In this document: piece after piece, positions 34,421 to 54,783 of the stretch
Layout of the letters: each line of letters opens with the position of its first letter
Numbering within the stretch: the first letter of the stretch is position 1
Assembly (NCBI RefSeq): GCF_051859145.1
Contig: NZ_JBHYGF010000001.1
Span: 4,032-68,031 of the forward strand
Direction of reading: 5' to 3'
DNA from: Dyadobacter sp.
GTDB lineage: Bacteria; Bacteroidota; Bacteroidia; Cytophagales; Spirosomataceae
Length of the DNA: 64,000 nt
Notes under the pieces: generated by a model
Told to the model about the DNA's origin: nothing
The model's database searches: none
What the model saw: only the letters and a program-made list of their open reading frames with translations
Translations under genes and position numbers: made by a program

Positions 34421-34498
34421 AGATTTCCAAGTGATGAGCTACTCTTTGGCTAACCTGGATGTGTTTTCCTATTAATGGTATTTTTTCCTATCAGTGAA

Positions 34499-34977: not shown

Positions 34978-35001
34978 AGAAATAACTATTACACTTGTGC
35001 T

Positions 35002-35382: not shown

Positions 35383-35996
35383 AAACAGAGAAATCAGGAT
35401 TAATGGGAGCGGGATTGTTATCGGCTGTAGCAGCATCGCTTTGTTGTATAACCCCTATTTTAGCCCTTGTTACAGGAGCTTCCGGGGTAGCTTCTACCTT
35501 CTCCTGGATGGAGCCTTTCAGACCTGTATTAATTGCCCTAACCCTGGCCGTGCTTGCTTTTGCATGGTACCGGAAATTGAAGCCTAAACCAATAAACGCC
35601 GTAGATTGTGCCTGTGAGGATGAAAAAAAACCTCCCTTCTTACAGTCTAAAAAGTTTCTTGGTATTGTTACGCTCTTTGCGGTGGCCATGCTTGCTTTTC
35701 CTTATTATGGCCATGTTTTCTATCCTTCCAAGGAGGTTCCGCAGGTGAGCACTTCGACTAATATAGTCCCCAAGAATTTTCAGCAAGTAAGTTTCAAAGT
35801 AAGGGGTATGACCTGCCAAAGTTGTGGAGAGCATATCGAGCATAGTGTTAATCAGCTGCCTGGGATAAATCACGTAAACGCTGATTTTAAAGAAGGTACC
35901 ACCGCTGTCCAATTTGACCCTGCTAAGACCAATAAAGAGCAGCTGGTACAGGCAATTAATTCGACAGGGTATAAGGTACAAACTGAAATTAAATAA
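35379..35996 (+). CDS. merTP: Mercuric transport protein, MerT-MerP fusion
   Basis: SLCCITP in TM1, three TM segments, C-terminal HMA GMTCQSC. Confidence 0.9.
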   Translation: MKTEKSGLMGAGLLSAVAASLCCITPILALVTGASGVASTFSWMEPFRPVLIALTLAVLAFAWYRKLKPKPINAVDCACEDEKKPPFLQSKKFLGIVTLFAVAMLAFPYYGHVFYPSKEVPQVSTSTNIVPKNFQQVSFKVRGMTCQSCGEHIEHSVNQLPGINHVNADFKEGTTAVQFDPAKTNKEQLVQAINSTGYKVQTEIK

Positions 35997-36011
35997 CTCT
36001 AAAAACGAAAA

Positions 36012-36349
36012 GTGATGATAAGTAAAGCAGTTTTAATAACGGTTGTTTCCGGATTATTCTTTGCCACCTCTCAAATGTGCGGTTGTGGATCATGTGAAGC
36101 AAAGGCATCAGAGACCCATGCCGATGTTCGTAAAACAGAAGTATTAGGGTTAAAGCTAACAGGTATAACTTGCGCAGGCTGCACAAGTCACGTATCCAAA
36201 GCTTTAAAAAGTCAACTGGGCGTACTGGAACAAACGGTGGAGTATCCGGGAGATATAGCTGTAGTAAAGTATGACCCGGAAAAAACGAGCCCGGAGCAAA
36301 TTATAAGTCGATAGAAAAGGCAGGCTATAAAGCTGTAACAGTTAAATAA
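36012..36349 (+). pseudogene. Secreted HMA-domain metal chaperone with a frameshifted C-terminus
   Basis: GITCAGC HMA motif; ORF stops at 36314 (IISR*) while the expected IEKAGYKAVTVK* is in another frame at 36311-36349. Confidence 0.65.
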
Positions 36350-36368
36350 ATCATCTTGAACTCCGATT

Positions 36369-38027: not shown

Positions 38028-38070
38028 ATATTATTTGCAGACCACCCCCTATAGCTGTTAAACTTGCCTT

Positions 38071-38475
38071 ATGGACATGCTACCTAAAGACTTAACACGA
38101 GACGTTAAAAATAGACTGAACACAATTAAAGGACAGGTGGAAGGCATTGTCAAAATGCTGGACGAGGGTAAAGACCCCCAGCAAATCTTAAATCAATTTA
38201 AAGCAGTTACGAAAGCCCTTGAAACAGCCCAAACTCTTCTTGTAGATGAAACCTTTCGAAAATCATTAGCTTCTAAGATTTCTGAAGTGATACAGGCCTG
38301 CCCCGGTAATTGTGGTCAGGAGCAAACGATAGAATCTTTGAGAGTTCAGTTTCCGACACTAGCTGAAGAGGAACTAACCCAAAAGATGAGGGAAATTCAA
38401 TCTGCTTACGAGCTGATGAATAAATTCAAAAAAGATTTGGAGACCTCCCCGGGTACCAACCGACCTTTGATGTAG
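38071..38475 (+). CDS. CsoR/RcnR-like metal-sensitive repressor (atypical)
   Basis: RLNTIKGQVEGIVKML..Q..AV..AL helical pattern with a C-terminal extension containing CPGNC. Confidence 0.75.
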   Translation: MDMLPKDLTRDVKNRLNTIKGQVEGIVKMLDEGKDPQQILNQFKAVTKALETAQTLLVDETFRKSLASKISEVIQACPGNCGQEQTIESLRVQFPTLAEEELTQKMREIQSAYELMNKFKKDLETSPGTNRPLM

Positions 38476-38490
38476 ATATTTAAATGCATT

Positions 38491-38760
38491 ATGAAAAGAA
38501 AGATAGAAGTATTTACAGCAGGTTGCCCGGTTTGCAAGCCGGTAGTAGAATTGGTTCAGTCGATGGCTTGCAGTAATTGCGAGGTAGAAGTATATGATTT
38601 ATCCAGGCAGACAGACCCGGAATTTTATACAGACAAGTTAAAGCAATATAAGGTAACTGTGCTTCCAACCGTTATTGTGAATGGTGAGAAGCTAGATATA
38701 GCTGAAGGCGGAATTACCAGGGAGCAATTAAGCCAGGCAGGAGTAGGACAATCAATATAA
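38491..38760 (+). CDS. Thioredoxin/glutaredoxin-like protein
   Basis: IEVFTAGCPVC, CSNC, VLPTVIVNG. Confidence 0.85.
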   Translation: MKRKIEVFTAGCPVCKPVVELVQSMACSNCEVEVYDLSRQTDPEFYTDKLKQYKVTVLPTVIVNGEKLDIAEGGITREQLSQAGVGQSI

Positions 38761-38766
38761 ATACAT

Positions 38767-39018
38767 ATGAAAAGAAAAGTTTTAGGATTAGTAACCGCTG
38801 TAATGTTTTTTACAGCAGGTTCAATGTATGCTTTTAGCCCCTTACAGGATAAATGCCCGGACAAAGGAACAGCTAAGTGTAAGCTGGTAAAGAACTGCCC
38901 GGATAAGGGTACTTCGAAGTGTAAGCTTGTAGATCAGAAGAAAGTAACTCTTCCTTCTTGCTGTCAAAAATCCCAAGAGACAGCTTCCGTTAAAAAAGCT
39001 TCTTCAAAGCTTAAATAA
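38767..39018 (+). CDS. Secreted Cys-rich small protein
   Basis: Signal peptide, tandem CPDKGT.KCKLV repeats, CC pair. Confidence 0.7.
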   Translation: MKRKVLGLVTAVMFFTAGSMYAFSPLQDKCPDKGTAKCKLVKNCPDKGTSKCKLVDQKKVTLPSCCQKSQETASVKKASSKLK

Positions 39019-39041
39019 GGGAGGCAAAACCCTTTTGAGAT

Positions 39042-39074
39042 ATAGCCCGGAAAAAACTTTTTTCGGGCTATTTT
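39042..39074 (+). terminator. Intrinsic terminator of the mer/csoR transcript
   Basis: TAGCCCGGAAAAAA-C-TTTTTTCGGGCTA stem followed by TTTT. Confidence 0.65.
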
Positions 39075-39246
39075 CATCATCAGTTGATGAGAGTAAAACG
39101 GTCGTTAAAGTATACCTATAGAAGGGAACCGGAAATTTTCAATAAAACCCTTTGAAAGGCAAAATTTAAAAGAATCGGCTCTTCTTCGTAAGTATAAAAT
39201 ATTAGTATATTTAATTAATATACCGTTAAGACGTTTTATTAAACTT

Positions 39247-39849
39247 ATGATGATCGGCTATGCCCGGGTTTCGACCCAAGACCAGAACCTAGACCTCCAG
39301 CTCGATGCCCTCAAAAAAGCAGGTTGCGAAAAGATTTATCAGGAGCAGTTGAGTGCATCAATTGAAGAACGCCCCAAATTATCAGAAATGGTTTCCAACT
39401 TAAGAAAGGGGGATACTGTTGTCGTATGGAAACTTGACCGTTTGGCCAGATCCCTAAAACACTTGCTTACGTTGGTATCGGATTTCAAAATAGCAGGCAT
39501 AGGATTTCTTAGCCTTCAAGACCAGATCAATACCACTACAGCCCAAGGCCGTTTGATTTTTAATATGTTCGCTTCGCTTTCTGAATTTGAAAGAGAAATA
39601 ATCAAAGAACGGACGCTTGCCGGACTAGCGGCAGCACGGAACCGTGGAAGGGTCGGTGGCAGAAAGAAAGGCCTGACCAAAGAGGCAAAGGTAAAAGCAG
39701 CTGCCGTAAAGCATTTGTACCTCGATGAAAAAAAATCCATAAATGAAATTTGTGAGGCAGTAAGCATCAGCAGGGCCACGGTTTACCACTACCTTGATTA
39801 TTTAAACGTAGACCGGGCCGTCAGAAAGCCCAAGGCAAAACAAGAATAA
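39247..39849 (+). CDS. tnpR: Tn3-family resolvase of Tn-A
   Basis: GYARVST, VWKLDRLARS, GRVGGR, C-terminal HTH; directly upstream of tnpA. Confidence 0.93.
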   Translation: MMIGYARVSTQDQNLDLQLDALKKAGCEKIYQEQLSASIEERPKLSEMVSNLRKGDTVVVWKLDRLARSLKHLLTLVSDFKIAGIGFLSLQDQINTTTAQGRLIFNMFASLSEFEREIIKERTLAGLAAARNRGRVGGRKKGLTKEAKVKAAAVKHLYLDEKKSINEICEAVSISRATVYHYLDYLNVDRAVRKPKAKQE

Positions 39850-39864
39850 TTAATCAATGATCCT

Positions 39865-42806
39865 ATGGCCGGCCAGTTCCTTACACATACAGAAAGAGAA
39901 CGCTATGAGTACGTGCCTTCTTCCATTTCTCCGGAAGATCTGAACCGGTACTTTTATTTATCAGATAGCGATATTGCCTTAATCAAAGAACAGCGGGGAA
40001 ATGAACAAAGGCTGGGCTTCGCTTGTCAGCTCTGTCTGATCCGCTTTATGGGCTTCCTTATTGATGAGTGGGAAAAGAGTATACCTAAACTTGTTTTGGA
40101 ATGTTTGTCCGGACAACTTCAGGCCCTGCCATCAGACCTGAAAAACTATAGTGCCAGGCGTAACACCCGTGCAGATCACCTCCAATCTATATTAAAACAC
40201 CTCCATTTTTCAAGATTTGCGCCTGGCTTCTGGAACGTTCGCTGGAACATGATAAGCCGACCCTGCTTTTGGATCTGGCCTGCGAGAAGCTTATCCAAAA
40301 CCGGATATTGAGGCCTGCGATCGGAACCCTTGAAAGAATGGTGGTCTCGGTACGTGCCCAGGCATATACCGAAACTTACAGGAGGCTATCCTTAATTTTA
40401 AACAATGAACTTAAAATACGGCTAGATGCCTTGCTCATTGTTGAAGAGGGAAATACTTTTACCCGTTTTGGCTGGCTAAAAGAATCTCCTAGTTCCAATA
40501 CACCGTCTACCTTAAACAATGCGTTGACGAAATATCAGTACCTTATTGATATCGGTATAACAGAATGGGATTTAACGGTACTAAACCCCAATCGTAAAAA
40601 GTTTCTTTCCCAAAAAGCCCGCAGGTCTACCAATCAGGAAATCCAGCGGATGAACCCTGAAAAAAGGTATCCGATACTTATTGCATTTCTTGCCTAGAAC
40701 CTCATCGACGTTACAGATTCGGTTTTAGATATGTTTGAAGCCTATCTCAATGACGTTTTTCATAAATGCAGAAGGTCACTTGAAATCTATCAACAAGAGA
40801 CCGTGAACGCCAAAGACAATGCGATGGCTACCCTAAGCTTCGTAGCGACAATGGTTGCCGACGAAAAAATCCCTCCGGAACAAATCAGGACAAAAGTATT
40901 TAGCAATATCTCAAAAACCGAGCTGAACGAAGCAATCTCGGTTACCAAAGAAATTTTAAAACCTGCCAGGAACAATTTCCTGTCCTTTCTAGACAACCAC
41001 TTCAATCGGCTCCGGCAGTTCAGCGGCAATTTCCTTAAAACGCTGACTTTCTTTTCTGGAATCCAGGACGATAACTTCTTGTATGCTATTGAGATTGTAT
41101 TAGGGCTTCAGAACGGTTCCCGTAAGAAAATCCCTGATGACGCCCCCTTAGATTTCATAACCCCCACGTGGTCAAAATATGTTTTTAACGAGGAAGGAGA
41201 AGGAATCAAACAATCATACGAATGGTGCGTGCTTTTTAAGCTAAAAGACAAACTCAACTCGGGCGACATCTTTGTTGCCAATTCCCGCAGGTATGCTGAT
41301 CTTGATGGGTACCTGATCCCAAAAGAACAATGGAAAATCAAGAAAGAGGAGATCTGCAGCCAGCTTTATATTTCACCAGATGCGTTGACGCATATAAACG
41401 GTAAAATCAAAGAACTCGAAGATTTGCTGCCTTTGGTAAATGACCTGTTGGTCGGAACCGATGAAGTACGCCTGGAAGATGGGATATTGGTAGTCCCCCG
41501 GTTGCAGGCACAGGAACTTCCGGATTCCGTATATGAACTTGAAAACGCTATTTCTTCCCGTTTGCCACTTGTAGACCTTCCAGAGATTTTGATGGAAGTC
41601 AATTCATGGACAAATTTTACAAATCACCTTACTTCGATACATGATGGAAAGTGTCCGGAAACTGGTCAGATCCACCGTGTTTATGCCTCGCTTTTAAGCA
41701 ATGCCTGTAACATACCTTGGGTGGATATGGCCCGGAGTGCCAACATCGAATACTATGATCTGTTATGGTCGATCCGAAGTTATCATAGAGAAGACACGTT
41801 AAAGCTTGCCAATAACCATTTAGTGAACTATCACCACAAACAATGGCTTTCTAATCTTTGGGGAGGCGGTACCCTTTCTTCTTCAGATGGACAGCGTTTC
41901 CCGGTAAGCGGTAAAATAAGAAATGCAAAAGCCCAACTGAAATATTTTGGGTATGGCAAGGGGGTCACGTTTTATACGCACACCGCTGACCAATACTCCC
42001 AGTTCGGAAGTAAAGTTATCGCCTCGACTGAAAGAGATGCTATGTATGTACTGGATGAAATCCTAAATAATGAAACTGAACTAAATATTTTGGAGCATAC
42101 TACAGATACATCCGGCTATACAGACTTGGTATTTGGGTTGTTCGATTTATTGGGAATGCAGTTTTCACCCAGGCTAAGGGATATCAAAGATCAAAAACTT
42201 TCTAAGATCAAAGGCAAGGATTTCGAATATCCCTCCTTGAAATTTACCGGTGTCATAAATCCAGATTATATCGCAGGCAGATGGGACGACTTATTGAGAT
42301 TGGCCGGTTCGATGAAATCGGGATATGTTACCTCTTCATTGTTTATTGGCAAGCTGCAGTCTTATCCAAGGCAAAACAATTTAACGTATGTCCTGCAGGA
42401 ATACGGCAGGCTTATTAAAACTATTTTCATTCTGAAATATCTGTTAAGCCAGACGTTGAGGCGAAAAATCAACACGCAACTGAATAAAGGCGAAGCACTT
42501 CATTCTCTCCGGAATTTCCTCTGGTTTGGAGGGGACGGCAAAATTAGGAAGAAACAAGAAGAACAACAGCAAGAACAGGCGTTATGCTTGAATGTAGCAA
42601 CCAATAGTGTTATACTTTGGAATACAATTTACATGCAGGAGGTCTTGAATGAATTACGGAAAGAAGGGTATATTGTAAACCAAGATGATATCGTTCATTT
42701 GTCCCCAGCAAGGTTCTCTCATATCAACAGGCTAGGAAAATACTTCTTTGATTTTGATGAAAATGGGTTGAATGGGAACTTAAGGCAATTAAGGGTAAAT
42801 GCTTAG
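39865..42806 (+). pseudogene. tnpA: Tn3-family transposase pseudogene
   Basis: Three ORF pieces colinear with the intact TnpA at 51468: frameshift or small deletion near 40215 and in-frame TAG at 40695-40697; SSSDGQRF and HTTDTSGY DDE motifs retained. Confidence 0.92.
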
Positions 42807-42839
42807 CGATACATTTCGTCCAAATACTATTGGAACCCC
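42802..42839 (-). repeat. Tn-A right inverted repeat
   Basis: Reverse complement GGGGTTCCAATAGTATTTGGACGAAATGTATCGCTAAG. Confidence 0.95.
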
Positions 42840-44585: not shown

Positions 44586-44722
44586 CTTGATTTGTATTTG
44601 TGAAATTTGACTTGCAATATATACCAATGTAAAATGTTTTCTTGCATATGCGTGAATGACACCATTTACTGAGGTGCCAACCTGCAACCAGTCTTACCTA
44701 CGCATAAGCTAAATTTTTATTG

Positions 44723-44749
44723 GAATAAGTGACACGATGTCACTTATTC
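44723..44749. repeat. Perfect inverted repeat, 12-bp arms with 3-bp spacer
   Basis: GAATAAGTGACA-CGA-TGTCACTTATTC. Confidence 0.85.
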
Positions 44750-45198
44750 GGTTGCCGTAAATCATACATGTAAATGGGAGTTAGAACTATAAGCTTTTTG
44801 AGTGTCACCTTCACTATCTCTGTCTGATCACACTGATCAACTAAGTAAGACTTCATCTGGTGGGAAGGTCTCGAACGAAATCCGTAGTGATTTGTTCGTA
44901 GCGGCTAACTTACAACTCAGATAACGTAACGTATACTATACGTCTACTTGTTAATCCACGGCACATTTATAACCAAGTACTACAATATATTGTAATGTTT
45001 GATTATTTTCATATTTTTAGCACTGTCCTGGTTGACAATCCGGCGTTGATAAACTCTTAAATTAATTTATCATAGATGTATTAGAAGATCGTAATTCTAT
45101 TGCTGGGTAGTAAGATGTTTAAGATTTATGAAGCCAGAGTAGGCAATATCTTTATTTAAAAAATATAAATTTGCATTTATAACATCTATAACTATCCT

Positions 45199-45799: not shown

Positions 45800-46203
45800 G
45801 TAACATAGACGAACTGGACTTAAATAAGCTTATTGCGAGTCTTCCTGAGGAAGAACAGAAAAAGATTAAAATTAAGCTTTTAAGGTCGCTTAGGGAATTC
45901 TACGCAAGTTTAGAAACTGAAAGTCCTACTGTCGAGAATAACGAATTACAAATTGAGGATATAGCTGTAAAAGCTCAAAAGGATCTTTCAGAGGTGCTTA
46001 AAGGTATTCGAGAGGATTTTGGTTGGACGGTATATGCGGCTTCTAAAAAGGCAAAAATTCGCCCTGAACAGGTTAGCTCGATAGAAGGTGATCCGAAGGT
46101 AAATAATAATTATACGTCCAAATTTCTGTTCAGATACTTAGCTGCTTTGGGTGTTCAGCTGACGGTAACAGATGTGTCTACAAAAAATGTCGATAGTATA
46201 TAA
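45796..46203 (+). CDS. HTH (XRE-like) DNA-binding protein
   Basis: LKGIREDFGWTVYAASKKAKIRPEQVSSIEG...LFRYLAALG. Confidence 0.7.
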   Translation: MSNIDELDLNKLIASLPEEEQKKIKIKLLRSLREFYASLETESPTVENNELQIEDIAVKAQKDLSEVLKGIREDFGWTVYAASKKAKIRPEQVSSIEGDPKVNNNYTSKFLFRYLAALGVQLTVTDVSTKNVDSI

Positions 46204-46262
46204 AAATATATATACATATATAGAAAAATGTATATCTTTAAGGGTTTTTTAGAATTATACTC

Positions 46263-46535
46263 ATGAAGGATATCACAAAAGTTTCACATTTGATAAGTCA
46301 CGGGAAGATCAATAATCTCAATGATCTTTACGAGCAGGTATCAAAAGCTGATATCGCGCGGGCTTTAAATCAAAATCCCACAAGCTTTACTAATTACAAG
46401 TCTAATAATCCTGAGTCTTTTAAACTTAGCGAGTTTATAGCCTTGTCTAAATTCTTAAATGTTAGCCTTGAATCTATTACCACGATTTTTGCAAACTCGA
46501 TTGATACCTATTCACAACTATCTGATAAGCAATGA
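46263..46535 (+). CDS. HTH (XRE-like) protein coupled to the putative rep gene
   Basis: SKADIARALNQNPTSFTN..PESFKLSEFIALSKFLNVS; ATGA overlap with 46532. Confidence 0.7.
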   Translation: MKDITKVSHLISHGKINNLNDLYEQVSKADIARALNQNPTSFTNYKSNNPESFKLSEFIALSKFLNVSLESITTIFANSIDTYSQLSDKQ

Positions 46536-47671
46536 ACGAACAATCTTTAGCTTTGACGCTGCCTCTTACTGATACTCGTGTCATAAGTAGAATCGACAGA
46601 GCAATAGCGGATAACCTTGATGCGCTTAAAAAGACCTACGGAAGGGATCATGAAATCGCCAGGGACTTTATCATATTTATTAGTACTAGTCTGAAAACTG
46701 ATATATTTGGATTCACAAGATTCACGATGTCAGACTTCATTAAAGTTGTCGGTCGAGATAGACGTGAGCTATCTTCAAAGCATTCTTATCTTACTGATAA
46801 GAGTGCGGAAATTATTGAATACAAAGGCCACCAGTTCATTTCTGTATTTGATTACGTATTGCACCTCTTACAGAGTCGAAATCTCATCTTTTCCAAAGCA
46901 TATTCCTACCTTAACCAAGGTAGGACAGTTGAAATGGAAGGTATCCAAATTATTAAACAATTAAAGATCACAACGGATACTAAAAATGGTAATAGCAAGG
47001 TCTATGATATCAGATTAAGTGAAGACTTTTTAAATGGATTTATAAGTAGATACTACACCTTCGAGGTAACGGGATATCCAAAAGTTGGAAAAGGGAAGGG
47101 GGGAGATGGCCGGAAGACATTGTACCTCATGCTATCCAAGGCAATGCATCAAAATATCAGTGATAGGGTAAAATATTCATGGTATTCTGTGGATTTTCTT
47201 TGTAAGATCTGCGATGTTCATTTTTCGGAACCTGCTGAACGTAAGCGCCTAATCACAAAGTATCTCAATAATTTGATTGAAAAGGGAGGATTGAAGATTG
47301 CCTATGAATTTGTGATAAAACACGGAAGTGATGATAAGCATATACGTGGGTTTTGGATTAAAGTGGACTTTATGCCAGAAGGTGTAGTCCAATTAAGAGA
47401 AACCAAGGCCGATCATCATTTTCATAGCATACTGTCCGCTGACTTAAAAACAGAATTCTCAAACCTTTATGGGAAAAGAGTCTTGAATTTCAACGAGGAC
47501 GAATCAGATCCTTTCCAAAGATGGGTAACAAATCCTCGTGCTGATTGGGCCATAAAAAGAAGTGTATTCATGAATTGTTATTTATTAGCTTATAAAAAGC
47601 ATATTTCCATTTGGGATGCTGACTTAAAAATGTCAAATACTTCAATTAAGGCTCATAGCATCTTAAATTAA
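46532..47671 (+). CDS. Putative plasmid replication initiator (family not recognised)
   Basis: 379 aa, basic and aromatic; assigned by context because it is immediately followed by iteron-like repeats, a DnaA box and an AT-rich tract. Confidence 0.6.
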   Translation: MNEQSLALTLPLTDTRVISRIDRAIADNLDALKKTYGRDHEIARDFIIFISTSLKTDIFGFTRFTMSDFIKVVGRDRRELSSKHSYLTDKSAEIIEYKGHQFISVFDYVLHLLQSRNLIFSKAYSYLNQGRTVEMEGIQIIKQLKITTDTKNGNSKVYDIRLSEDFLNGFISRYYTFEVTGYPKVGKGKGGDGRKTLYLMLSKAMHQNISDRVKYSWYSVDFLCKICDVHFSEPAERKRLITKYLNNLIEKGGLKIAYEFVIKHGSDDKHIRGFWIKVDFMPEGVVQLRETKADHHFHSILSADLKTEFSNLYGKRVLNFNEDESDPFQRWVTNPRADWAIKRSVFMNCYLLAYKKHISIWDADLKMSNTSIKAHSILN

Positions 47672-47690
47672 GTGCATCGTCATTCTTAGT

Positions 47691-47724
47691 AGGGAGATGT
47701 AACTAGTTTACACCTCCCTTTTTG
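47691..47724 (+). terminator. Intrinsic terminator after the putative rep gene
   Basis: AGGGAGATGTAA-CTAGT-TTACACCTCCCT followed by TTTT. Confidence 0.7.
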
Positions 47725-47785
47725 TTTAAAATGCCTTTACTCCTGGACTGAGGTCTGCATTCGCCTGAAATCGCGCTTTCGCCTT

Positions 47786-48071
47786 GGTTGTCGGGTATAC
47801 TACATGTAAGTGCTTATTTTTCGAAGTTATCCACAAAAAAGTGAAAATCGGTTGTCAGAAATACTACATGTAGAGTAAGTAGGTTGTCGGGAATGCTACG
47901 TGTAATCAATTTTGGCTGTCGAGAATACTACATGTAAATTTTGCCGGCTGTCGAGAATGCTACATGTAAGGTAAAATCGAAGATCCGTTGTCGAGAATAC
48001 TACATGTAAGAAACCTCAATTTATTGCGTTTCCAGCGAACTGAGAGGGGGGGGTGTCCAGAATACTACACC
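47786..48071 (+). repeat. Iteron-like array of 24-bp direct repeats (consensus GGTTGTCGRGAATACTACATGTAA)
   Basis: Copies start at 47786, 47850, 47882, 47914, 47946, 47986 and (partial) 48051; spacings 64, 32, 32, 32, 40, 65. Confidence 0.9.
47827..47835 (+). promoter_or_regulatory. DnaA box
   Basis: Exact TTATCCACA between repeats 1 and 2. Confidence 0.75.
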
Positions 48072-48310
48072 AATATTATATACCATTATAAAAATTATAA
48101 AAAGAAAGAAGAAAAGCGGTATTCGCTTTCGCTCATGATTTAATTATTTGAACAAATGGGAAAAAGAAATGTGAAACTTTTTGAACTAATAACATAGTTA
48201 GTTGATTTTTTTTCAGCAGCAAGACTTACCAAAGGAATATATTTTTTAAAAAGACTAAAATACACTAATACAATATATTGTATATTACATTTTATTGTAT
48301 TATATTTAAT
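48072..48310. other. AT-rich tract, putative DNA unwinding element
   Basis: Long A/T runs immediately after the repeat array. Confidence 0.5.
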
Positions 48311-48567
48311 TGAATTTTAAAACTTGTATCATGGAAAGGAAAATAGACGCCGGAGGCCGATGCATTTTTGTTTTAAGTTGGATATCAGCCGGATTTTTAA
48401 GTTGCATGTGGATCAGTTTGCTAATACTGGATCTGTCTTACAATCCTATGTTGTTTTTAAAGGCTCATATTGTCGCTCTGGTGACATTTGCAATCAAATA
48501 TGATATAGATTTCAACCTTAAACACGTAAAGCCCGGTGCAGCCGATAAAATAGGCTGTAAATATTAA
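48310..48567 (+). CDS. Possible small membrane protein
   Basis: 85-aa ORF with two hydrophobic stretches; no motif. Confidence 0.3.
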   Translation: MNFKTCIMERKIDAGGRCIFVLSWISAGFLSCMWISLLILDLSYNPMLFLKAHIVALVTFAIKYDIDFNLKHVKPGAADKIGCKY

Positions 48568-48708: not shown

Positions 48709-48843
48709 GGTTGTCCGAAATACTACATGTAAGCTTTTAAGAAGATGATGTCCATTGCTCCTAAGCGAGCACCGGCTCCTGATGTGATCCATATTAACCA
48801 CAATGTCAGAAGAAGAATGGGTTGTCCGAAATACTACATGTAA
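48709..48843 (+). repeat. Distal iteron-like copies
   Basis: GGTTGTCCGAAATACTACATGTAA identical at 48709-48732 and 48820-48843. Confidence 0.85.
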
Positions 48844-49025
48844 CCCGTTTTATAAGATGCTAACCTTTGATCCTGAGGTTTTCGTTACAAATGGGCGAAA
48901 ACATACGCTAAGAAACTAAGTTACTAGTTTATACCGCTGCCATTTAACATCTGAGCTTTACAGTCAATCCGTTATTATCTACAATTGTCAGCCGATTTTT
49001 GGGATCTTCAATATTTCAGAAAAAT

Positions 49026-49051
49026 CATATTTAAGCAAATACTTAAATATG
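49026..49051 (+). promoter_or_regulatory. Putative ArsR operator 2
   Basis: CATATTTAAG-CAAATA-CTTAAATATG; the core 22 bp is the exact reverse complement of operator 1; a perfect -7 TATATTTG follows at 49054-49061. Confidence 0.8.
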
Positions 49052-49080
49052 ATTATATTTGTCTAAAATCATAGGCAAAT

Positions 49081-49467
49081 ATGGAAAAAGAGTTAGATCA
49101 AGCCAATAGCTGTATCCGTTTGTTCGCTGATCAGGTGCAGATCCAGGTATGTAAGGAAATATTATTTGAAAATGAAGACGCTTTTACCCGATTATCTCAG
49201 GTCTATGCACTTGCTGGAAATGATGCCCGCCTAAAAATACTTTATCTTCTCCAGCAGCAGAATGAGCTTTGTCCTTGCGATTTAAGCGATATTTTGCATA
49301 TGACGGTTCCGGCTGTTTCTCAGCATCTTCGTAAATTAAAAGATGCCAGCTTAGTACGTACCCGAAAATCCGGACAAACCATCTTTTATTCGATCATACC
49401 TGATCAGGCAGATGTCATTAACCAATTATTTATGCATATTCCCAATCAAGAAAGTATAGCAGTATGA
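49081..49467 (+). CDS. ArsR/SmtB-family repressor (paralog of 35002)
   Basis: LAGNDARLKILYLL..ELCPCDL..TVPAVSQHLRKL. Confidence 0.93.
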   Translation: MEKELDQANSCIRLFADQVQIQVCKEILFENEDAFTRLSQVYALAGNDARLKILYLLQQQNELCPCDLSDILHMTVPAVSQHLRKLKDASLVRTRKSGQTIFYSIIPDQADVINQLFMHIPNQESIAV

Positions 49468-50051
49468 AAGCACCCAAAGTTACCGCTAATGCCGGTATTC
49501 TTACTGCATTGGCAAGTTCTGTTTGTTGTATCACACCGTTACTGGCCATGGTGGCCGGGACAAGCAGCCTGGCAACAACTTTTGATTGGATTGTGCCTGC
49601 TCGTCCTTATTTTATTGTTGGTACTGTATTGATTTTAGGTTTTGCCTGGTATCAGCAGTTAAAACCAGTTTCCGAAGCCTCATGTAATTGCGAACCTGAA
49701 AACAAACCATTTATGCAAACCAAAAAGTTTTTAAGCATGGTAACCCTTGCAGCAGTATTACTCATTACTTTCCCGAGTTATTCTGGACTAGTCTATCATC
49801 AGAAACAGGAAGTAAAACAACCCATTTCCAAGAAAGGGCAAACAGCCATTATAAAAATTAAAGGGATGACCTGTGAAGGGTGTGAACATCATGTCACACA
49901 GGAAGTCAATAAGTTAAAAGGCATACAGCAGGTTCAGGTGTCGTACAAAAAAGGCAATGCAACCGTTAAGTATGACAGTACAAAAACATCACTGGCAGCA
50001 ATTAAAAAAGCAGTCGATGCTACCGGATATAAAGTCGTTGAAACAAACTAG
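49464..50051 (+). CDS. merTP: Mercuric transport protein, MerT-MerP fusion
   Basis: SVCCITP and C-terminal GMTCEGC. Confidence 0.9.
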   Translation: MKAPKVTANAGILTALASSVCCITPLLAMVAGTSSLATTFDWIVPARPYFIVGTVLILGFAWYQQLKPVSEASCNCEPENKPFMQTKKFLSMVTLAAVLLITFPSYSGLVYHQKQEVKQPISKKGQTAIIKIKGMTCEGCEHHVTQEVNKLKGIQQVQVSYKKGNATVKYDSTKTSLAAIKKAVDATGYKVVETN

Positions 50052-50057
50052 GCAGTT

Positions 50058-50267
50058 ATGAATGTAATATTAGAATCTGTAATTTCCTGCCCGCACTGCA
50101 ATACCAAATACGCTGAAACGATGCCGGTTAATGCATGTATGTACTTTTACGAGTGCACAAATTGCAAGACATTGCTAAGGCCAGCTGCGGGTGATTGCTG
50201 TGTATTTTGCACCTATGGAACGGTGAAGTGCCCACCGATACAAATGAACAAGTCATGCTGTGCCTAA
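50058..50267 (+). CDS. GDCCVxC-domain Cys-rich protein
   Basis: CPHC, YFYECTNC, GDCCVFCTYG. Confidence 0.9.
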   Translation: MNVILESVISCPHCNTKYAETMPVNACMYFYECTNCKTLLRPAAGDCCVFCTYGTVKCPPIQMNKSCCA

Positions 50268-50285
50268 CAATATAATATCAATGCC

Positions 50286-50696
50286 ATGAAAATGATGAAA
50301 ACAATTCCGGCCCTTCCTGTTCAAAATATTGAAGAGTCCGTAAAATTTTATTCTGAAAAATTGGGTTTCACGGCACCATATTATGACGACGGCTTTGCCA
50401 AGGTAGTCCGCGATGAAATTGAGATCCATTTATGGGCATCTTCGGATGAGAGCTGGAAGAACAAGGGCTTAGCCTTGGTTGCAGATCCAATCTGCAGTGG
50501 GGCCGAGAGCTTTCTGGCAGGCACGGCCAGTTGCCGGATTGAAGTCCAAGGTATTGATGAGTTGTACGACGAATATAAAAAGCAAGGCGTTATATATGAC
50601 GCCGAAACTGTTGTGGAAGAGCAACCATGGGGAGACCGGGAATTTCCAGCACTTGACCTCCATCGTAATCTGTTAACTTTTTATGAGGAGATTTAG
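50286..50696 (+). CDS. VOC/bleomycin-resistance-like protein
   Basis: TIPALPVQNIEESVKFY..LGF, QPWGDREF..LDLHRNLLTF. Confidence 0.85.
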   Translation: MKMMKTIPALPVQNIEESVKFYSEKLGFTAPYYDDGFAKVVRDEIEIHLWASSDESWKNKGLALVADPICSGAESFLAGTASCRIEVQGIDELYDEYKKQGVIYDAETVVEEQPWGDREFPALDLHRNLLTFYEEI

Positions 50697-50733
50697 AAAA
50701 ACCCACGCCAACATTGAGCTTAAAGTAACGGGA

Positions 50734-51348
50734 TCAAACTGTATCTTTTGATCTTGATAGGTAGTTGTAAACAGTTCCATAGGCTATCCCTAGCTGTTTA
50801 GAAATCTTGTTCATTGATAACCCTGACTTTTGTAATTCAAAAATTTCATTTTGCCGATCTATTGATATAGTCGGCCGCGAAATACGTTTTCCTTGTGCTT
50901 TTGCCCTAGCCATACCCGCTTTTACCCTTTGACTGATCAGCGAACTTTCGAATTGAGCCAGGGAAGCCATCACATGAAATATCAGCTCACCGGTTGGTGT
51001 GGTGGTGTCAATATTTTCCTGATAGGATATAAAGTCGATACCCATGCTTTGAAATTCTTTCATTGCATTAACCAGTGCCTGGGTAGAACGTGCAAACCGA
51101 TCATACCGCCAAACCAAAACTACATCCAGTTTTCTCTTTTTGGCCGCGGCCATCATTAATTTATACTGGATCCTGTCCTGGGTTGTTCCGGATGCATAGT
51201 CTATAAATTCCCCAATGACATCAAAGTTACGCTTGGATGCGTATTCTCTTAACTGGGTTAACTGAGTTTCCGGATCCTGTCCTTTATCCTGGGTGGATAC
51301 CCTTGCATATAGTGCTACCCGTTTGGTTTGAATTACCTGGTTTTTCAT
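50734..51348 (-). CDS. tnpR: Serine resolvase of Tn-B
   Basis: LYARVST, VWRYDRFARS, SQRVKAGMARAK, C-terminal HTH; divergent from tnpA. Confidence 0.92.
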   Translation of the reverse strand: MKNQVIQTKRVALYARVSTQDKGQDPETQLTQLREYASKRNFDVIGEFIDYASGTTQDRIQYKLMMAAAKKRKLDVVLVWRYDRFARSTQALVNAMKEFQSMGIDFISYQENIDTTTPTGELIFHVMASLAQFESSLISQRVKAGMARAKAQGKRISRPTISIDRQNEIFELQKSGLSMNKISKQLGIAYGTVYNYLSRSKDTV

Positions 51349-51467
51349 TTAATTGCCTATCAAAAAGGAGTTCCTTTACAAAGATAGTTTTTGATATCAA
51401 AAAACAAGCTTTAAACCTATTTCAAGCGTGGTAGATTTTGATACCCTTTTTGATAACTGTTTTTCAT

Positions 51468-54455
51468 ATGGCATCACTATTTTTAAACCAGGCGCAGCGT
51501 GAACGCTACGAGCGGGTACCCATGGAAATATCTGAATATGATTTGATGCAATTTTTTCAGATTTCGCATCATGATAAAATTTTTCTTAAATCATTCAGAG
51601 GGGAACATAACCGGCTAGCGATTGCCCTTCAAACAGGTATTGTCCGCTTCATGGGTTTTCTTCCCGACAAATGGCAAGTACAGATTCCGGCAAATGTAGC
51701 TGCAATGGTATGTGATCATCTAAATATCAATATTGAACGATTAGCACTATACGGAAACAGGGATGCAACCAGAACAGAACACTTGAATCTGGTACTAAGA
51801 TATTTAAAGTTCCGCAGATGGCAACCCATGGATGAACTCTGGCTAGCGCCATGGCTTTTAAACAAAGGTATGGAGCATGATAATGAAGCCATATTGCTCG
51901 AACAAGTTTGTTTAAAGCTTGGACAGGAAAGAATTTTGAGACCATCGATTGGAACATTGGAACGAATTGTAGGGAGTCTGGATGAACAGCTGCACCAGGA
52001 AACATACCGCAGGTTCAGTTTGCTTTTGACCGAAGATATGAAATCCAGGCTGACTCAAATTTTAGAATTGGATATTCTCCGTGGTATTACTTTGCATCGA
52101 TGGCTTTGCCAGGTACCTACCAGTAATACCCCAAGATCAATCAATCAAACGCTGGAGAAGATAAACTTTTTGAAATCATTTAACGTCCATGAATGGGACT
52201 TGTCGGTCATAAGCCTAAACCGGAGAAAAAGATTAACACAAATAGCCAGGAATGTTTCAAACAAGTATTTACAAAGATTGAACGCTACCAGAAGGTACCC
52301 GATTTTAATCTGTTTTCTGTATGAAAGCCTGATGGATACAAATGATAAAGTGCTGGAAATGTTTGATGATTATTGGGAGCACATTGTTAATGGCTCAAAA
52401 AAGGAACTGGATATCTACCAGCAGTCCTTGTTCAAATCGCAGAACGAAGCAATGAAAACTTTGTCCCAGGCAGTCAGCATCATTGTTAACGATACTGTTA
52501 CAGACGACCAGTTACGGAGTTTAATTTTTGAGATATATCCAAAGGAAGTTCTCATGGAGGCATTACTTGTTACAAGGTCCGCACTACGTCCCATCAGGCA
52601 GACCCATTTATACTACCTCAATAATTATTATGGCAATTTGAAACAGTTTACACCGAACCTTCTCAAAACCTTTGATTTTCAAATTGCACATTCGAAAGAT
52701 GGTTTTCAGAAAGTTATCGAGATACTAACTGATTTACAATCTGGAAAGAAAAGGAAATTACCTGATGACACACCGGTCGATTTTATAACGCCTTCCTGGA
52801 ATAAACTGGTTTTTGAAAACGATCAGCAGCAGCCCGAAATTTTCCCACAACGCCAGCCTTACGAATTATGTGCCTTGGCTAACTTACGTGACCGGCTCCG
52901 TTCCGGGGATGTATTTATAAATATTTCCCGAAAATATGCTGACTTCAATTCGCTGCTTCTTTCAAAAACTCAATGGGAATTGCTACGGAAGGATTTTTGT
53001 AGTCAAATGTCAATGCCTTCTCTACCCACCGAGCGTATTGATCAGCGTTTACATGAACTGGAATCACTGTTAAAACCACTTGATGAACTGCTTAATGCCG
53101 GCGGAGAAATACGGCTTGAAGAAGGTGTATTGGTAGTGCCAGCACTTCCGGCAGAAAATATTCCCCTTTCAGCAAAAGCCCTTAGAGAGCAGATTAATCA
53201 GCGGCTCCCGAAAGTCAATATTACTGATATCATAAAAGAAGTAGATGCATGGATAAACTTTTCAGAACATCTTCACGGCCTGGAAAACGAACCGCGCAAC
53301 CCGGAGCACCAGTCCCTTTTATACGCTGCTGTGTTTGCTGCGGGTTGTAATTTACCCTTATCGGATCTAGCCAGGTCTTGTGAACTTGACTATCAATCAC
53401 TTTGGTGGACAAGCAATAACTATCTGTCAGAAGAAAATCTTAAAAAGGCAAATGATACTCTTGTTAATTTTCATTACCAGCAATGGCTAAGCGGTTATTG
53501 GGGAGGGGGTACACTTTCATCTTCAGACGGACAGCGCTTCCCGACCAGTGGAAAAATCCGTAATGCGAAAGCACTACCCAATTACTTTGGATACGGTAAA
53601 GGCATTACCTTTTATACGCATACTTCTGATCAGTATAGCCAGTATGGCAGCCGTAGCATCTCTTCAACTGAAAGGGATGCCACATATGTCTTGGATGAAA
53701 TTATTGGAAATGAAACCGATTTGCCCATTCTCGAACATACCACTGATACAGCTGGTTATTCAGATTTGATCTTTGCCTTGTTTGATTTGCTAGGAATGGA
53801 TTTTTGCCCAAGGATCCGGGACATAAAAGATCAGAGGTTGTGTAAAATAAAGGATAAGGAATGGGAATATCCTGCATTGAAATTTACCGGACGTGTTAAT
53901 CCGGAATATTTAAAACAACATTTTGACGAACTTTTAAAAGTCGCTGCCTCTATTAAATCGGGACGAGTGACTGCTTCATTATTGATTTCAAAACTCCAGT
54001 CTTATCCACGTCAAAACAACTTGATGTATGTTTTGCAAGCTTACGGCCAGCTGATTAAAACCAACTTTATCCTCAAATACCTGCTTAACCTGCCTTTACG
54101 CAGAAAGATAAATACACAGCTGATCAAAGGAGAACAGCTTCATAACCTAAGGCTTTACCTGTGGTTTGGCAGTGATGGGATTGTCCGCAGAAAACAAGAA
54201 GAGCAACAACAAAAAATTGTCAGGAGCCTGAATCTGATAACGAATATTATCCTGGTCTGGAACACAGTGTATCAGCAGGAAATTATCAAGCAATTACACC
54301 AGGAAGGATATGTTGTTGACGAAAATGACTTTGAGTTTATCTCCCCTGCACCCTTTGAGCATATCAACCGATTGGGCAAATATTCCTTTAATACAAATCC
54401 AGAGCTTGGAGACAACGGTTTACGACCATTAAGAAAGCCGAAACTAAGTAACTAG
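51468..54455 (+). CDS. tnpA: Tn3-family transposase, intact
   Basis: About 995 aa from ATG 51468; SSSDGQRF, HTTDTAGY, RKINTQLIKGEQLH, HINRLGKY. Confidence 0.95.
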   Translation: MASLFLNQAQRERYERVPMEISEYDLMQFFQISHHDKIFLKSFRGEHNRLAIALQTGIVRFMGFLPDKWQVQIPANVAAMVCDHLNINIERLALYGNRDATRTEHLNLVLRYLKFRRWQPMDELWLAPWLLNKGMEHDNEAILLEQVCLKLGQERILRPSIGTLERIVGSLDEQLHQETYRRFSLLLTEDMKSRLTQILELDILRGITLHRWLCQVPTSNTPRSINQTLEKINFLKSFNVHEWDLSVISLNRRKRLTQIARNVSNKYLQRLNATRRYPILICFLYESLMDTNDKVLEMFDDYWEHIVNGSKKELDIYQQSLFKSQNEAMKTLSQAVSIIVNDTVTDDQLRSLIFEIYPKEVLMEALLVTRSALRPIRQTHLYYLNNYYGNLKQFTPNLLKTFDFQIAHSKDGFQKVIEILTDLQSGKKRKLPDDTPVDFITPSWNKLVFENDQQQPEIFPQRQPYELCALANLRDRLRSGDVFINISRKYADFNSLLLSKTQWELLRKDFCSQMSMPSLPTERIDQRLHELESLLKPLDELLNAGGEIRLEEGVLVVPALPAENIPLSAKALREQINQRLPKVNITDIIKEVDAWINFSEHLHGLENEPRNPEHQSLLYAAVFAAGCNLPLSDLARSCELDYQSLWWTSNNYLSEENLKKANDTLVNFHYQQWLSGYWGGGTLSSSDGQRFPTSGKIRNAKALPNYFGYGKGITFYTHTSDQYSQYGSRSISSTERDATYVLDEIIGNETDLPILEHTTDTAGYSDLIFALFDLLGMDFCPRIRDIKDQRLCKIKDKEWEYPALKFTGRVNPEYLKQHFDELLKVAASIKSGRVTASLLISKLQSYPRQNNLMYVLQAYGQLIKTNFILKYLLNLPLRRKINTQLIKGEQLHNLRLYLWFGSDGIVRRKQEEQQQKIVRSLNLITNIILVWNTVYQQEIIKQLHQEGYVVDENDFEFISPAPFEHINRLGKYSFNTNPELGDNGLRPLRKPKLSN

Positions 54456-54603
54456 TTACTTAGCGTATGTTTTCGCCCATTTGTAACGAAAACCTCATCC
54501 TTAGCGAGAAACGTTTCATTGTTTTTACTTGAAAAATTTTAATCTGGTTATTGATCCGGCCAGCTGTTTCATTTTAATTTATCACCTATACTAATTTTAG
54601 GAC

Positions 54604-54783
54604 GGTTGTCGCAAATACTACATTTAATTCATTTTCAAAGTCTGATTTCTGGCGGATTTTGGAAGGTTGATACATGATGATTGCCGTGATATAGCTGTTT
54701 ATTGAGGTAAAACTTCATTTTTTTGCAGCACTTGGTTCGAAGCCCTGCAATGGGATACCCGTTGTCGGGAATACTACATGTAA
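54604..54783 (+). repeat. Iteron-like copies right of Tn-B
   Basis: GGTTGTCGCAAATACTACATTTAA (54604-54627) and CGTTGTCGGGAATACTACATGTAA (54760-54783). Confidence 0.85.

What the first reader, a model, noticed from the sequence alone, without database searches (positions are those of the whole stretch)
46263..48310. Candidate undescribed Bacteroidota plasmid replicon: unrecognised Rep with phased palindrome-cored iterons and a DnaA box
Seen: a 90-aa HTH gene overlaps a 379-aa gene I cannot place in any Rep family I recognise. A terminator follows, then 24-bp direct repeats (GGTTGTCGRGAATACTACATGTAA) at 47786, 47850, 47882, 47914, 47946, 47986 and 48051. Four consecutive copies are exactly 32 bp apart (about three helical turns). 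The one skipped 32-bp slot holds a perfect DnaA box (TTATCCACA, 47827). An AT-rich tract follows. Most copies contain the palindrome TACATGTA, which is unusual for iterons bound by monomeric Rep. Established: iterons + DnaA box + AT-rich region is the theta-replicon layout. Inference: this is oriV and the 379-aa protein is its initiator, possibly a new family.
Basis: partly seen in the sequence, partly recalled or inferred. Interest (0 to 1): 0.8.

Follow-up and report, generated by a model that had tools for sequence, protein, structure and literature searches.

The report
Unannotated iteron replicon of Dyadobacter plasmid
This is very probably the replication origin and initiator gene of a large conjugative plasmid of the soil bacterium Dyadobacter; the mechanism is the familiar iteron type, but no database names the initiator family, and copies of its 24-base binding site are also scattered over the plasmid at the edges of swappable gene blocks.

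Summary
Six good 24-bp repeats plus one degenerate copy lie at 47786-48074. Four are exactly 32 bp apart. The window's only perfect DnaA box fills the skipped slot, and an AT-rich tract follows (GC down to 11%).

The 379-aa protein has no Pfam, NCBIfam or PDB sequence match. Its confident AlphaFold model matches RepE/Rep-iteron structures in the top 41 PDB hits. Ten of 102 distant relatives hit Pfam Rep3_N.

Thirteen of 16 homolog loci carry their own phased repeat array beside the gene, and the repeat sequence drifts with the protein. The small upstream gene is not conserved between loci. Homologs sit on 40 circular Bacteroidota plasmids in PLSDB, all annotated "hypothetical protein".

I read this as an iteron-type theta replicon with a divergent, unmodelled RepE-like initiator (confidence 0.85). 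Nothing has been tested experimentally.

One thing is unexplained. About a dozen more perfect copies of the 24-mer are dispersed over the plasmid. They are co-oriented, always intergenic, and often lie at junctions where relatives carry different gene blocks. A few copies also occur in Dyadobacter genomes that lack the Rep family.

The parts
46263..46535 (+). 90-aa Cro/C1-type HTH gene, first gene of the rep operon; likely operon autoregulator (inferred)
   Evidence: Weak Pfam HTH_26 match, E 6.8e-4. It overlaps rep by 4 nt. It is conserved only in the closest relatives; the small upstream ORFs in other family loci are not homologous.
46532..47671 (+). 379-aa initiator (Rep), RepE-like double winged helix plus an extra C-terminal helical domain (about residues 292-370)
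   Evidence: AF2 model pLDDT 84.5, pTM 0.85. The top 41 Foldseek PDB hits are RepE54/Rep-iteron complexes, followed by RctB. 10 of 102 relatives hit Pfam Rep3_N. The family profile's top PDB sequence hits are RepE WH2.
47691..47728 (+). intrinsic terminator of the rep operon
   Evidence: RNA fold dG -13 kcal/mol, z -2.71, followed by UUUUUGUUU.
47786..47809 (+). iteron 1 (GGTTGTCGGGTATACTACATGTAA)
   Evidence: In G023, L042 and L029, homology with the window begins at or 12 bp before this iteron.
47827..47835 (+). DnaA box TTATCCACA in the skipped iteron slot
   Evidence: Only perfect box in 64 kb. Invariant in five orthologous origins.
47850..47969 (+). iterons 2-5, start-to-start exactly 32 bp (47850, 47882, 47914, 47946)
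   Evidence: The iterons are conserved while the spacers drift in orthologous origins.
47986..48009 (+). iteron 6
48051..48074 (+). degenerate iteron 7, preceded by a conserved G-run (48046-48053)
   Evidence: 17 of 19 positions match the reference. Conserved in all five orthologous origins.
48075..48138 (+). A/T-rich block ending in the conserved element CGGTATTCGCT..CGCTCATGA (48117-48138)
   Evidence: The element is present about 60-70 bp after the last iteron in both Dyadobacter Rep clades, which have 37-40% Rep identity and different iterons.
48139..48320 (.). AT-rich tract, candidate DNA-unwinding element; GC 11% at 48240-48319, with a 17-nt inverted repeat at 48266-48302
   Evidence: highest AT in any 80-bp window is 0.89, starting at 48236.
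48310..48567 (+). small conserved ORF (78-85 aa, probable ATG at 48331, hydrophobic), function unknown; travels with the origin
   Evidence: Present after the array in G004, L042 and L029.
48709..48843 (+). two further 24-mers (48709, 48820): first half of a looser second cluster
   Evidence: In G004 the four copies lie within 450 bp (60844, 60955, 61113, 61268).
54604..54783 (+). two further 24-mers (54604, 54760): second half of that cluster, separated here by a Tn3-family insertion (48875-54496)
   Evidence: The insertion has 38-bp IRs and a 5-bp ATCCT duplication, and the site is empty in G004.
44750..44773 (+). degenerate 24-mer (5 mismatches) preceded by a hairpin like the one before the array on contig C112

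Best explanation
The locus is the replication module of a large conjugative plasmid of Dyadobacter (Cytophagales, Bacteroidota). It works as an iteron-type theta replicon.

Proposed mechanism:
1. The 379-aa protein is the initiator. It has two winged-helix domains like RepE of plasmid F, plus an extra C-terminal helical domain.
2. Monomers bind the six to seven 24-bp iterons downstream of its own gene. The 32-bp (three-turn) phasing places them on one face of the helix.
3. Host DnaA binds the box between iterons 1 and 2.
4. The complex opens the adjacent AT-rich tract so that the host helicase can load.
5. The looser cluster of four iterons about 0.7 kb further on probably limits copy number by titration or handcuffing, as incA does in P1 and incC in F. 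The single dispersed copies may contribute too.
6. The 90-aa HTH protein probably represses the operon promoter.

Shown here: the fold, the anatomy, the co-variation of gene and repeats, and the occurrence on plasmids. Inferred: binding, origin firing, DnaA dependence, copy-number control and the role of the HTH protein.
For: 1. Fold. The AF2 model is confident (pLDDT 84.5, pTM 0.85). The top 41 Foldseek PDB hits are all RepE54 or Rep-iteron/DUE complexes (probability 1.0 for most, TM on target 0.46-0.57), followed by RctB domains 2-3. The top viral-library hits are named replication proteins, including COG5527.
2. Sequence bridge. 10 of 102 distant family members hit Pfam Rep3_N, best E 6.7e-6. 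The family profile's seven best PDB sequence hits are all RepE, aligned over WH2.
3. Gene-repeat partnership. 13 of 16 distinct homolog loci have their own phased direct-repeat array next to the gene. Twelve are downstream and one (B. fragilis) is upstream. Periods are 21-32 bp. The repeats share a core (TGTCGRGTAT / AGTATTGC) that drifts with protein divergence. The small upstream ORF is not homologous between loci, so the Rep is the constant partner.
4. Plasmid location. tblastn finds the family on 40 circular PLSDB plasmids, all Bacteroidota and all annotated 'hypothetical protein'. Four of the five inspected have no MOB-suite replicon type. No initiator is listed in PLSDB's (partial) gene table for the complete 94.6-kb D. 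chenhuakuii plasmid; its record starts with parA-like ATPase, small ORF, this gene, array.
5. Origin anatomy. It is conserved in five orthologous origins: iterons conserved, spacers drifting, DnaA box invariant, AT block and the CGGTATTCGCT..CGCTCATGA element. That element is shared with a second Rep clade.
6. Copy numbers. Only the three genomes with a close Rep ortholog (at least 91% identity) carry 15-18 copies of the 24-mer, including phased arrays.
Against: - No experiment has been done. Binding, origin firing and plasmid state are inferred.
- Structural and profile matches are remote: Foldseek E about 1e-3 at 8-10% identity; profile E 0.015.
- Two close relatives lack an adjacent array within the DNA held: L017/L018 at 96% identity and D. 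frigoris L012 at 65%. In G023 the array lies 12.5 kb from the gene.
- DnaA-like boxes are not clearly enriched in other clades' origins: 5 found against 2 expected.
- The 24-mer also occurs as 1-4 copies in 12 Dyadobacter genomes with no detectable family member. Something other than this Rep may therefore also use it.
- GC skew does not mark the site as an origin.
Confidence: 0.85

Rival explanations
1. The 24-mer is mainly the site of a different system that serves mobile elements of Dyadobacter, such as a site-specific recombinase or a backbone DNA-binding protein. In this reading the array next to rep is a special case, for example a recombination or multimer-resolution hot spot, or a regulatory array, and the true iterons or origin lie elsewhere.
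For: - Perfect 24-mers occur in more than 25 unrelated flank contexts, always intergenic.
- Homology breakpoints between related elements fall 0-12 bp from a 24-mer in four cases.
- At the same junction (after ssb-orf109) the inserted DNA is 4.4, 1.7 or 0.9 kb in three genomes.
- Copies persist in 12 genomes without the Rep family.
- In one shared 7.6-kb module with 13% nucleotide divergence, the three 24-mers carry 1 change in 72 nt.
Against: - The 5' half of the 24-mer is the same core found in the arrays next to Rep homologs of 24-40% identity, which ties the array to the Rep family.
- Helically phased arrays with a DnaA box and an AT-rich tract are origin anatomy, not recombination-site anatomy.
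- No recombinase gene is consistently adjacent.
- The sites are more than 100 times denser on Rep-bearing plasmids than elsewhere.
- Two module edges lie 130-300 bp from the sites, not at them.
Confidence: 0.07
2. The array is a partition centromere or operator array bound by the 90-aa HTH protein or a ParB-type protein, and the 379-aa protein has some other DNA-related role.
For: - Centromeres such as F sopC are arrays of phased direct repeats with a short palindrome.
- Each 24-mer contains the palindrome TACATGTA.
- A 43-bp-phased triplet exists on contig C112.
- A small DNA-binding gene precedes rep.
Against: - The small upstream ORF is not conserved across the family, whereas the array always is.
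- The genes next to the 43-bp triplet are a LytTR two-component pair, not par genes.
- In clade 2 a separate parA plus RHH pair lies upstream of rep, so partition has its own proteins.
- The 379-aa protein has the initiator fold.
Confidence: 0.04
3. The element is an integrative conjugative element. The Rep-like module is a relic, or serves only transient replication after excision.
For: - The window lies in a draft assembly, so circularity is unproven.
- Bacteroidota tra genes are typical of conjugative transposons.
- Parts of the backbone occur on contigs of 400 kb or more in other species.
Against: - No integrase was found near the backbone regions examined.
- Family members lie on 40 closed circular plasmids.
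- The 168-kb G004 scaffold carries almost no core-like genes shared with G000's chromosome.
- The rep reading frame and the origin are intact and conserved across three species.
Confidence: 0.04

Closest known systems
RepE / ori2 of plasmid F (Rep_3 family; also pi of R6K, RepA of pPS10 and pSC101, TrfA of RK2)
   Same: - Double winged-helix fold.
- Direct-repeat iterons next to the rep gene, a DnaA box, an AT-rich unwinding region, and a second iteron cluster nearby.
   Different: - Only 8-10% identity, and no Pfam hit for this protein.
- About 90 extra C-terminal residues.
- 24-bp iterons on a 32-bp (three-turn) register, against 19-22 bp on a 22-bp register.
- Each iteron holds an 8-bp palindrome.
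- Additional single iterons are spread over more than 50 kb.
P1 plasmid replicon (RepA with incC origin iterons and incA control iterons)
   Same: Origin iterons plus a separate iteron cluster that, by analogy, would titrate or handcuff the initiator.
   Different: - P1's control iterons directly follow repA.
- Here the second cluster lies beyond a small ORF, and further copies are dispersed singly.
- Sequence relation to P1 RepA was not tested here.
RctB of Vibrio cholerae chromosome 2
   Same: - A structural match follows RepE in the hit list (5tbf).
- Like this protein, it is an initiator larger than RepE.
- From my own knowledge, not checked here: it binds sites away from its origin, such as crtS.
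   Different: - The match is weaker (E 0.03).
- RctB sites are methylated 11/12-mers and 39-mers.
- There is no evidence here for a remote trigger site.
pdif modules of Acinetobacter plasmids and integron cassettes
   Same: Short conserved sites bound exchangeable gene blocks on plasmids. As with attC sites, all sites point the same way.
   Different: - The 24-mer is not a XerC/D-type dyad or an attC hairpin.
- No dedicated recombinase was identified.
- Some module edges lie 130-300 bp from the site.
- The same sequence forms the origin array.

Membership tests
Rep_3 / RepE-like iteron initiators (Pfam PF01051 Rep3_N with Rep3_C) | Significant match to the family's sequence profile | tested here: not met
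   No Pfam or NCBIfam hit for the 379-aa protein at E up to 1. The link is only indirect: 10 of 102 distant relatives hit Rep3_N, best E 6.7e-6, and the family profile matches RepE at E 0.015.
Rep_3 / RepE-like iteron initiators (Pfam PF01051 Rep3_N with Rep3_C) | Two tandem winged-helix domains (WH1-WH2) | tested here: met
   The AF2 model is confident. Foldseek aligns about 275-290 columns to RepE54 chains with probability 1.0 for most and TM on target 0.46-0.57. All of the top 41 hits are RepE/Rep.
Rep_3 / RepE-like iteron initiators (Pfam PF01051 Rep3_N with Rep3_C) | Gene adjacent to tandem direct repeats (iterons) that co-vary with the protein | tested here: met
   13 of 16 distinct loci. 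Exceptions: L017/L018, L012/L013, and G023, where the array is 12.5 kb away.
Rep_3 / RepE-like iteron initiators (Pfam PF01051 Rep3_N with Rep3_C) | Specific binding of Rep to iterons and Rep-dependent origin firing | not testable with these tools
   Needs EMSA or footprinting and a replication assay.
Iteron-type theta origin (oriV) | Iteron array, DnaA box and AT-rich unwinding region in one block | tested here: met
   The layout is conserved in five orthologous origins. The DnaA box is not general across other clades.
Iteron-type theta origin (oriV) | Located on an autonomously replicating circular molecule | tested here: inconclusive
   Family members lie on 40 circular PLSDB plasmids. The window's own element is in a draft assembly, and the read-depth test was unavailable.
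ParABS / SopABC-type centromere | Array next to parA/parB genes and bound by the adjacent small DNA-binding protein | tested here: not met
   There is no par gene next to either array. The upstream small ORFs are not homologous across loci. Clade 2 has a separate parA-RHH pair.
Site-specific recombination cassette system (integron attC or pdif-like) | Sites lie exactly at cassette boundaries, with a cognate recombinase | tested here: inconclusive
   Four breakpoints lie 0-12 bp from a site, but others lie 61-316 bp away. No consistently linked recombinase was found.

The most novel reading that the evidence does not exclude
The 24-mer has two roles. At the origin it is the iteron. Its dozen dispersed, co-oriented intergenic copies mark the points where cargo blocks are exchanged between related plasmids and chromosomes. 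Examples are a LytTR two-component/outer-membrane-protein block and a lexA-like/imuA/imuB/dnaE2 mutagenesis cassette. The sites are kept by selection even in genomes without the Rep. That would mean either that initiator-bound iterons drive modular recombination (through handcuffing or fork stalling), or that an unknown site-specific system shares the iteron sequence.
Probability: 0.25. Interest if true: 0.8.

Novelty: new variant of a known kind. Interest (0 to 1): 0.55.

Why it matters
- **Annotation and typing.** The result names the likely initiator of a plasmid family that current tools leave blank: 'hypothetical protein' on 40 complete Bacteroidota plasmids, and no replicon type for four of the five inspected. 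A profile of this family would improve plasmid detection and typing in Bacteroidota.
- **Possible reach into the human gut.** The family appears to include ~98-kb Bacteroidales plasmids of the size and strain series of pMMCAT. The paper describing pMMCAT does not discuss replication. I did not confirm that these records are pMMCAT.
- **Genetic tools.** A defined minimal replicon of about 2.4 kb would be a starting point for shuttle vectors in Cytophagales, which have few genetic tools.
- **Plasmid evolution.** If the dispersed, junction-associated iterons are functional, they would link replication control to modular plasmid evolution.

Tried and rejected
- **Promoter reading of the 24-mer.** Rejected. 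Many copies lie in convergent intergenic gaps, no common downstream gene exists, and the motif does not fit the Bacteroidota -33/-7 consensus.
- **RNA element.** No Rfam hit in the window or the related contigs.
- **SopABC-like centromere for the 43-bp triplet on C112.** Rejected. The neighbouring genes are a LytTR response regulator and a histidine kinase.
- **Tn3 inverted-repeat reading of the 24-mers flanking the mer transposon.** Rejected. All are in direct orientation, and the true 38-bp IRs were found.
- **SOS-box reading (a lexA-like gene is nearby).** Rejected. The site lies at the 3' end of that gene.
- **GC skew as an origin marker.** Uninformative; it follows gene orientation.
- **DNA similarity to PLSDB plasmids.** No match.
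- **Whole-record scans of the metagenome contigs behind L012, L014 and L017.** Not possible.
- **Literature.** No paper on pA27BH1 and nothing on Dyadobacter replicons.
Full report
**1. Observation**

- The 90-aa ORF (46263-46535) overlaps the 379-aa ORF (46532-47671) by ATGA.
- A hairpin at 47691-47719 (dG -13 kcal/mol, z -2.7) followed by a U-tract terminates the operon.
- Copies of GGTTGTCGRGAATACTACATGTAA start at 47786, 47850, 47882, 47914, 47946 and 47986. A degenerate copy starts at 48051. The spacings are 64, 32, 32, 32, 40 and 65 bp.
- Ten matches with up to 3 mismatches occur in the window, against none in 100 shuffles.
- TTATCCACA at 47827 sits in the skipped 32-bp slot. It is the only perfect DnaA box in the 64 kb.
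- GC falls to 11-29% between 48080 and 48320.

**2. Context**

- The window is C1:4032-68031 of a 616-contig, 5.98-Mb draft genome.
- Contig C1 has 41% GC against 46% for the genome.
- Record titles of matching loci place the motif in the genus Dyadobacter.
- The window carries Bacteroidota-type transfer genes (TraJ, TraM, DUF4138/TraN-like and TraO), LigD, and two Tn3-family mercury transposons.
- Comparison with a 168-kb scaffold of another species (G004:C3, by its length the D. bucti scaffold) shows that G000 contigs C1, C546 and C112 are one element, 96-99% identical.
- That element also encodes a ParA-like ATPase, a coupling protein, a Toprim/DUF3991 protein, topoisomerase III and SSB.
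- The parts of the G004 scaffold not shared with G000 have few or only distant counterparts in G000. This fits a plasmid but does not prove it.
- The second Tn3 element is an insertion at 48875-54496 with perfect 38-bp IRs and an ATCCT duplication; the site is empty in G004. Without it, four 24-mers form a loose cluster (G004: 60844, 60955, 61113, 61268) about 0.7 kb past the array, beyond a small conserved ORF.

**3. The protein**

- It has no Pfam, NCBIfam or PDB sequence match.
- It has 15 relatives among 5.8 billion protein clusters.
- It has 126 relatives among 1.84 billion representative proteins.
- With a 16-sequence alignment, AlphaFold2 gives pLDDT 84.5 and pTM 0.85.
- Foldseek against the PDB returns RepE54 or Rep-iteron/DUE complexes as all of the top 41 hits. 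E starts at 7e-4, probability is 1.0 for most, TM on the target is 0.46-0.57, and identity is 8-10%. RctB domains 2-3 come next.
- In the viral library the best hits are named replication proteins, including COG5527.
- Ten of 102 distant family members hit Pfam Rep3_N on their own, best E 6.7e-6.
- A profile of the family finds RepE as its seven best PDB sequences, E 0.015-0.07, aligned over WH2.
- The protein is thus a remote, unmodelled branch of the RepE/Rep_3 double winged-helix initiators, with about 90 extra C-terminal residues.

**4. Gene-repeat partnership**

Repeat arrays next to homologs:

| Locus | Repeat unit | Copies and phase |
|---|---|---|
| L014 | TGTCGAGTATTGCGATA | 17 copies, 21-25 bp |
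| L015/L016 | GATGTCGGGTATTTCGA | 8 copies |
| L019 | 4 related copies | |
| G000:C400, a paralog in the same genome | CTGTCGAGTATTGCC | 12 copies, 21 bp |
| D. chenhuakuii plasmid | same type as C400 | about 12 copies |
| Pontibacter plasmid | TTCAAGTATTGCCAC | at least 10 copies |
| Pedobacter pA27BH1 | TAATAGTATTTCGACC | 8 copies |
| Mucilaginibacter plasmid | ATTATAGTATTTCGACC | about 6-10 copies |
| L020 | AATGTTCGGTAGTTCG | 8 copies, 21 bp |
| L021 | TTCCAGTATTGCAGCA | at least 12 copies |
| B. fragilis 98-kb plasmid | TCGGGACACTTTTACACAACT | 9 copies, upstream, 32 bp |

- The 5' half of the window's 24-mer (TGTCGRG.AT) is the family-wide core. The 3' half, including the TACATGTA palindrome, is specific to this lineage.
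- The small ORF in front of rep is not homologous between loci: an HTH here, an RHH after parA in clade 2, and unrelated proteins elsewhere. The Rep is therefore the constant partner of the arrays.
- Exceptions are L017/L018 (96% identity; homology to the window ends in the last codons of rep), D. frigoris L012/L013 (65%; one copy 1.3 kb away), and G023, where a 12.5-kb block separates rep from the array.

**5. Plasmid location**

- tblastn finds the family on 40 PLSDB records. All are Bacteroidota and all are annotated 'hypothetical protein'.
- The five records inspected are circular, and four have no MOB-suite replicon type.
- No initiator is listed in PLSDB's (partial) gene table for the complete 94.6-kb D. 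chenhuakuii plasmid. Its record starts with a ParA-like ATPase, a 91-aa ORF, this gene and the array.
- Hits of about 98 kb in Bacteroides, Parabacteroides and Phocaeicola match the size and strain series of pMMCAT. The paper on that plasmid contains no mention of replication. I did not confirm that these records are pMMCAT.

**6. Origin anatomy across orthologs**

- An alignment of five orthologous origins (window, G004, G023, D. flavalbus L042, metagenome L029) shows conserved iterons and drifting spacers.
- The alignment also conserves an invariant DnaA box, a G-run, an A/T block, the element CGGTATTCGCT..CGCTCATGA, and an AT-rich inverted repeat before the small ORF.
- The CGGTATTCGCT element also follows the last iteron in clade-2 origins (C400 and CP099631), although those Reps are only 37-40% identical and use different iterons.
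- DnaA-like boxes are not clearly enriched in other clades' origins: 5 found against 2 expected.

**7. The dispersed copies (unexplained)**

- Beyond the origin region, G000 has seven copies on C112 and one each on C149 and C321. The C112 set includes a triplet 43 bp apart.
- In a scan of 60 genomes of the genus, the three with a close Rep carry 17, 18 and 15 copies. Five genomes that have only the clade-2 Rep carry 3-8. Twelve genomes with no family member, even by profile search, carry 1-4, some deep inside closed chromosomes. The reversed control pattern gives zero everywhere.
- All 83 catalogued sites are intergenic.
- More than 25 unrelated flank contexts hold a perfect or near-perfect 24-mer.
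- Copies are co-oriented within an element: 16 on the plus strand and 1 on the minus strand of G004:C3.
- No common downstream gene was found and there is no Rfam hit.
- Homology breakpoints between related elements fall 0, 10, 12 and 9 bp from a 24-mer.
- At the junction after ssb-orf109 the inserted DNA is 4.4 kb in G000 (LytTR pair and an outer-membrane protein), 1.7 kb in G004 and 0.9 kb in G023.
- A 7.6-kb lexA-like/imuA/imuB/dnaE2 cassette has 24-mers near both ends. It is shared at 87% nucleotide identity with a 430-kb contig of a Rep-free species, and its three 24-mers carry 1 change in 72 nt. The cassette edges lie about 300 and 130 bp outside the sites.
- Iterons of other clades are not dispersed in this way.
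- The most economical reading is that these are additional Rep sites used for titration, handcuffing or as a polar barrier, and that they also act as recombination hot spots. Their persistence without the Rep leaves room for a second, unidentified user of the site.

**8. Verdict**

The kind is well known.
- What is new:
  - The initiator family is unmodelled and unannotated across Bacteroidota plasmids.
  - It uses 24-bp iterons on a three-turn register.
  - Its iteron sequence is scattered over the plasmid at module junctions.
- Earlier notes from this scan describe comparable unmodelled RepE-fold initiators in other Bacteroidota, one of them with dispersed copies. I did not test those notes, and they lower the element of surprise.
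- Nothing here is experimental. The decisive tests are a replication assay of the 46.2-48.6 kb fragment and binding or ChIP assays.

Noticed in passing
window 48875-54496: Second Tn3-family mercury transposon (arsR-merTP, tnpR, tnpA), precisely delimited: perfect 38-bp IRs (GAGGTTTTCGTTACAAATGGGCGAAAACATACGCTAAG) and a 5-bp ATCCT target duplication. The site is empty in G004:C3. It is inserted 31 bp after a 24-mer.
   Followed up: yes
window 34382-42834: The first Tn3-family mer transposon is absent from the otherwise collinear G004:C3.
   Followed up: partly
G000 contig C400 (locus L009) 813-3644: A second, smaller replicon of the same Rep family lies in the same genome: parA, a 91-aa RHH gene, rep (37% identical to the window's, with a masked stretch), then 12 iterons CTGTCGAGTATTGCC on a 21-bp register. 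All three genomes with the clade-1 Rep also carry a clade-2 Rep.
   Followed up: partly
G000 contig C112 31016-38159 (loci L004/L005): A lexA-like (HTH + S24 peptidase) / imuA / imuB / dnaE2 / 158-aa cassette has 24-mers near both ends. The same cassette occurs on the D. chenhuakuii plasmid without flanking 24-mers, and on a 430-kb contig of a Rep-free species with them.
   Followed up: partly
window 44720-44749 and C112:14995-15040: A conserved hairpin (AAGTGACACGNTGTCACTT) directly precedes a 24-mer at two unrelated places. It may be a shared terminator or part of a larger junction element.
   Followed up: no
locus L078 (B. fragilis NZ_CP069564.1) 2375-2869: A distant homolog (25% identity) on a 98-kb Bacteroidales plasmid is preceded by nine 21-nt repeats on a 32-bp register, next to parA and mobC/relaxase. 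This is a candidate replicon for the pMMCAT-size plasmids, whose replication is not described in the paper read.
   Followed up: partly
locus L017 5572-6436: In the metagenome relative with a 96%-identical Rep and no adjacent array, a perfect 24-mer lies 200 bp upstream of a serine-recombinase (resolvase) gene.
   Followed up: no
window 46180-46262; L017 9657; L012 9671-9709: The rep-operon promoter region is an AT-rich stretch with repeated ATATATAAAAATGTATA-like units (two exact copies in L012). In L017 it also holds a half-iteron, TGTCGAGAAT. These are candidate operators for the HTH protein and/or Rep.
   Followed up: no
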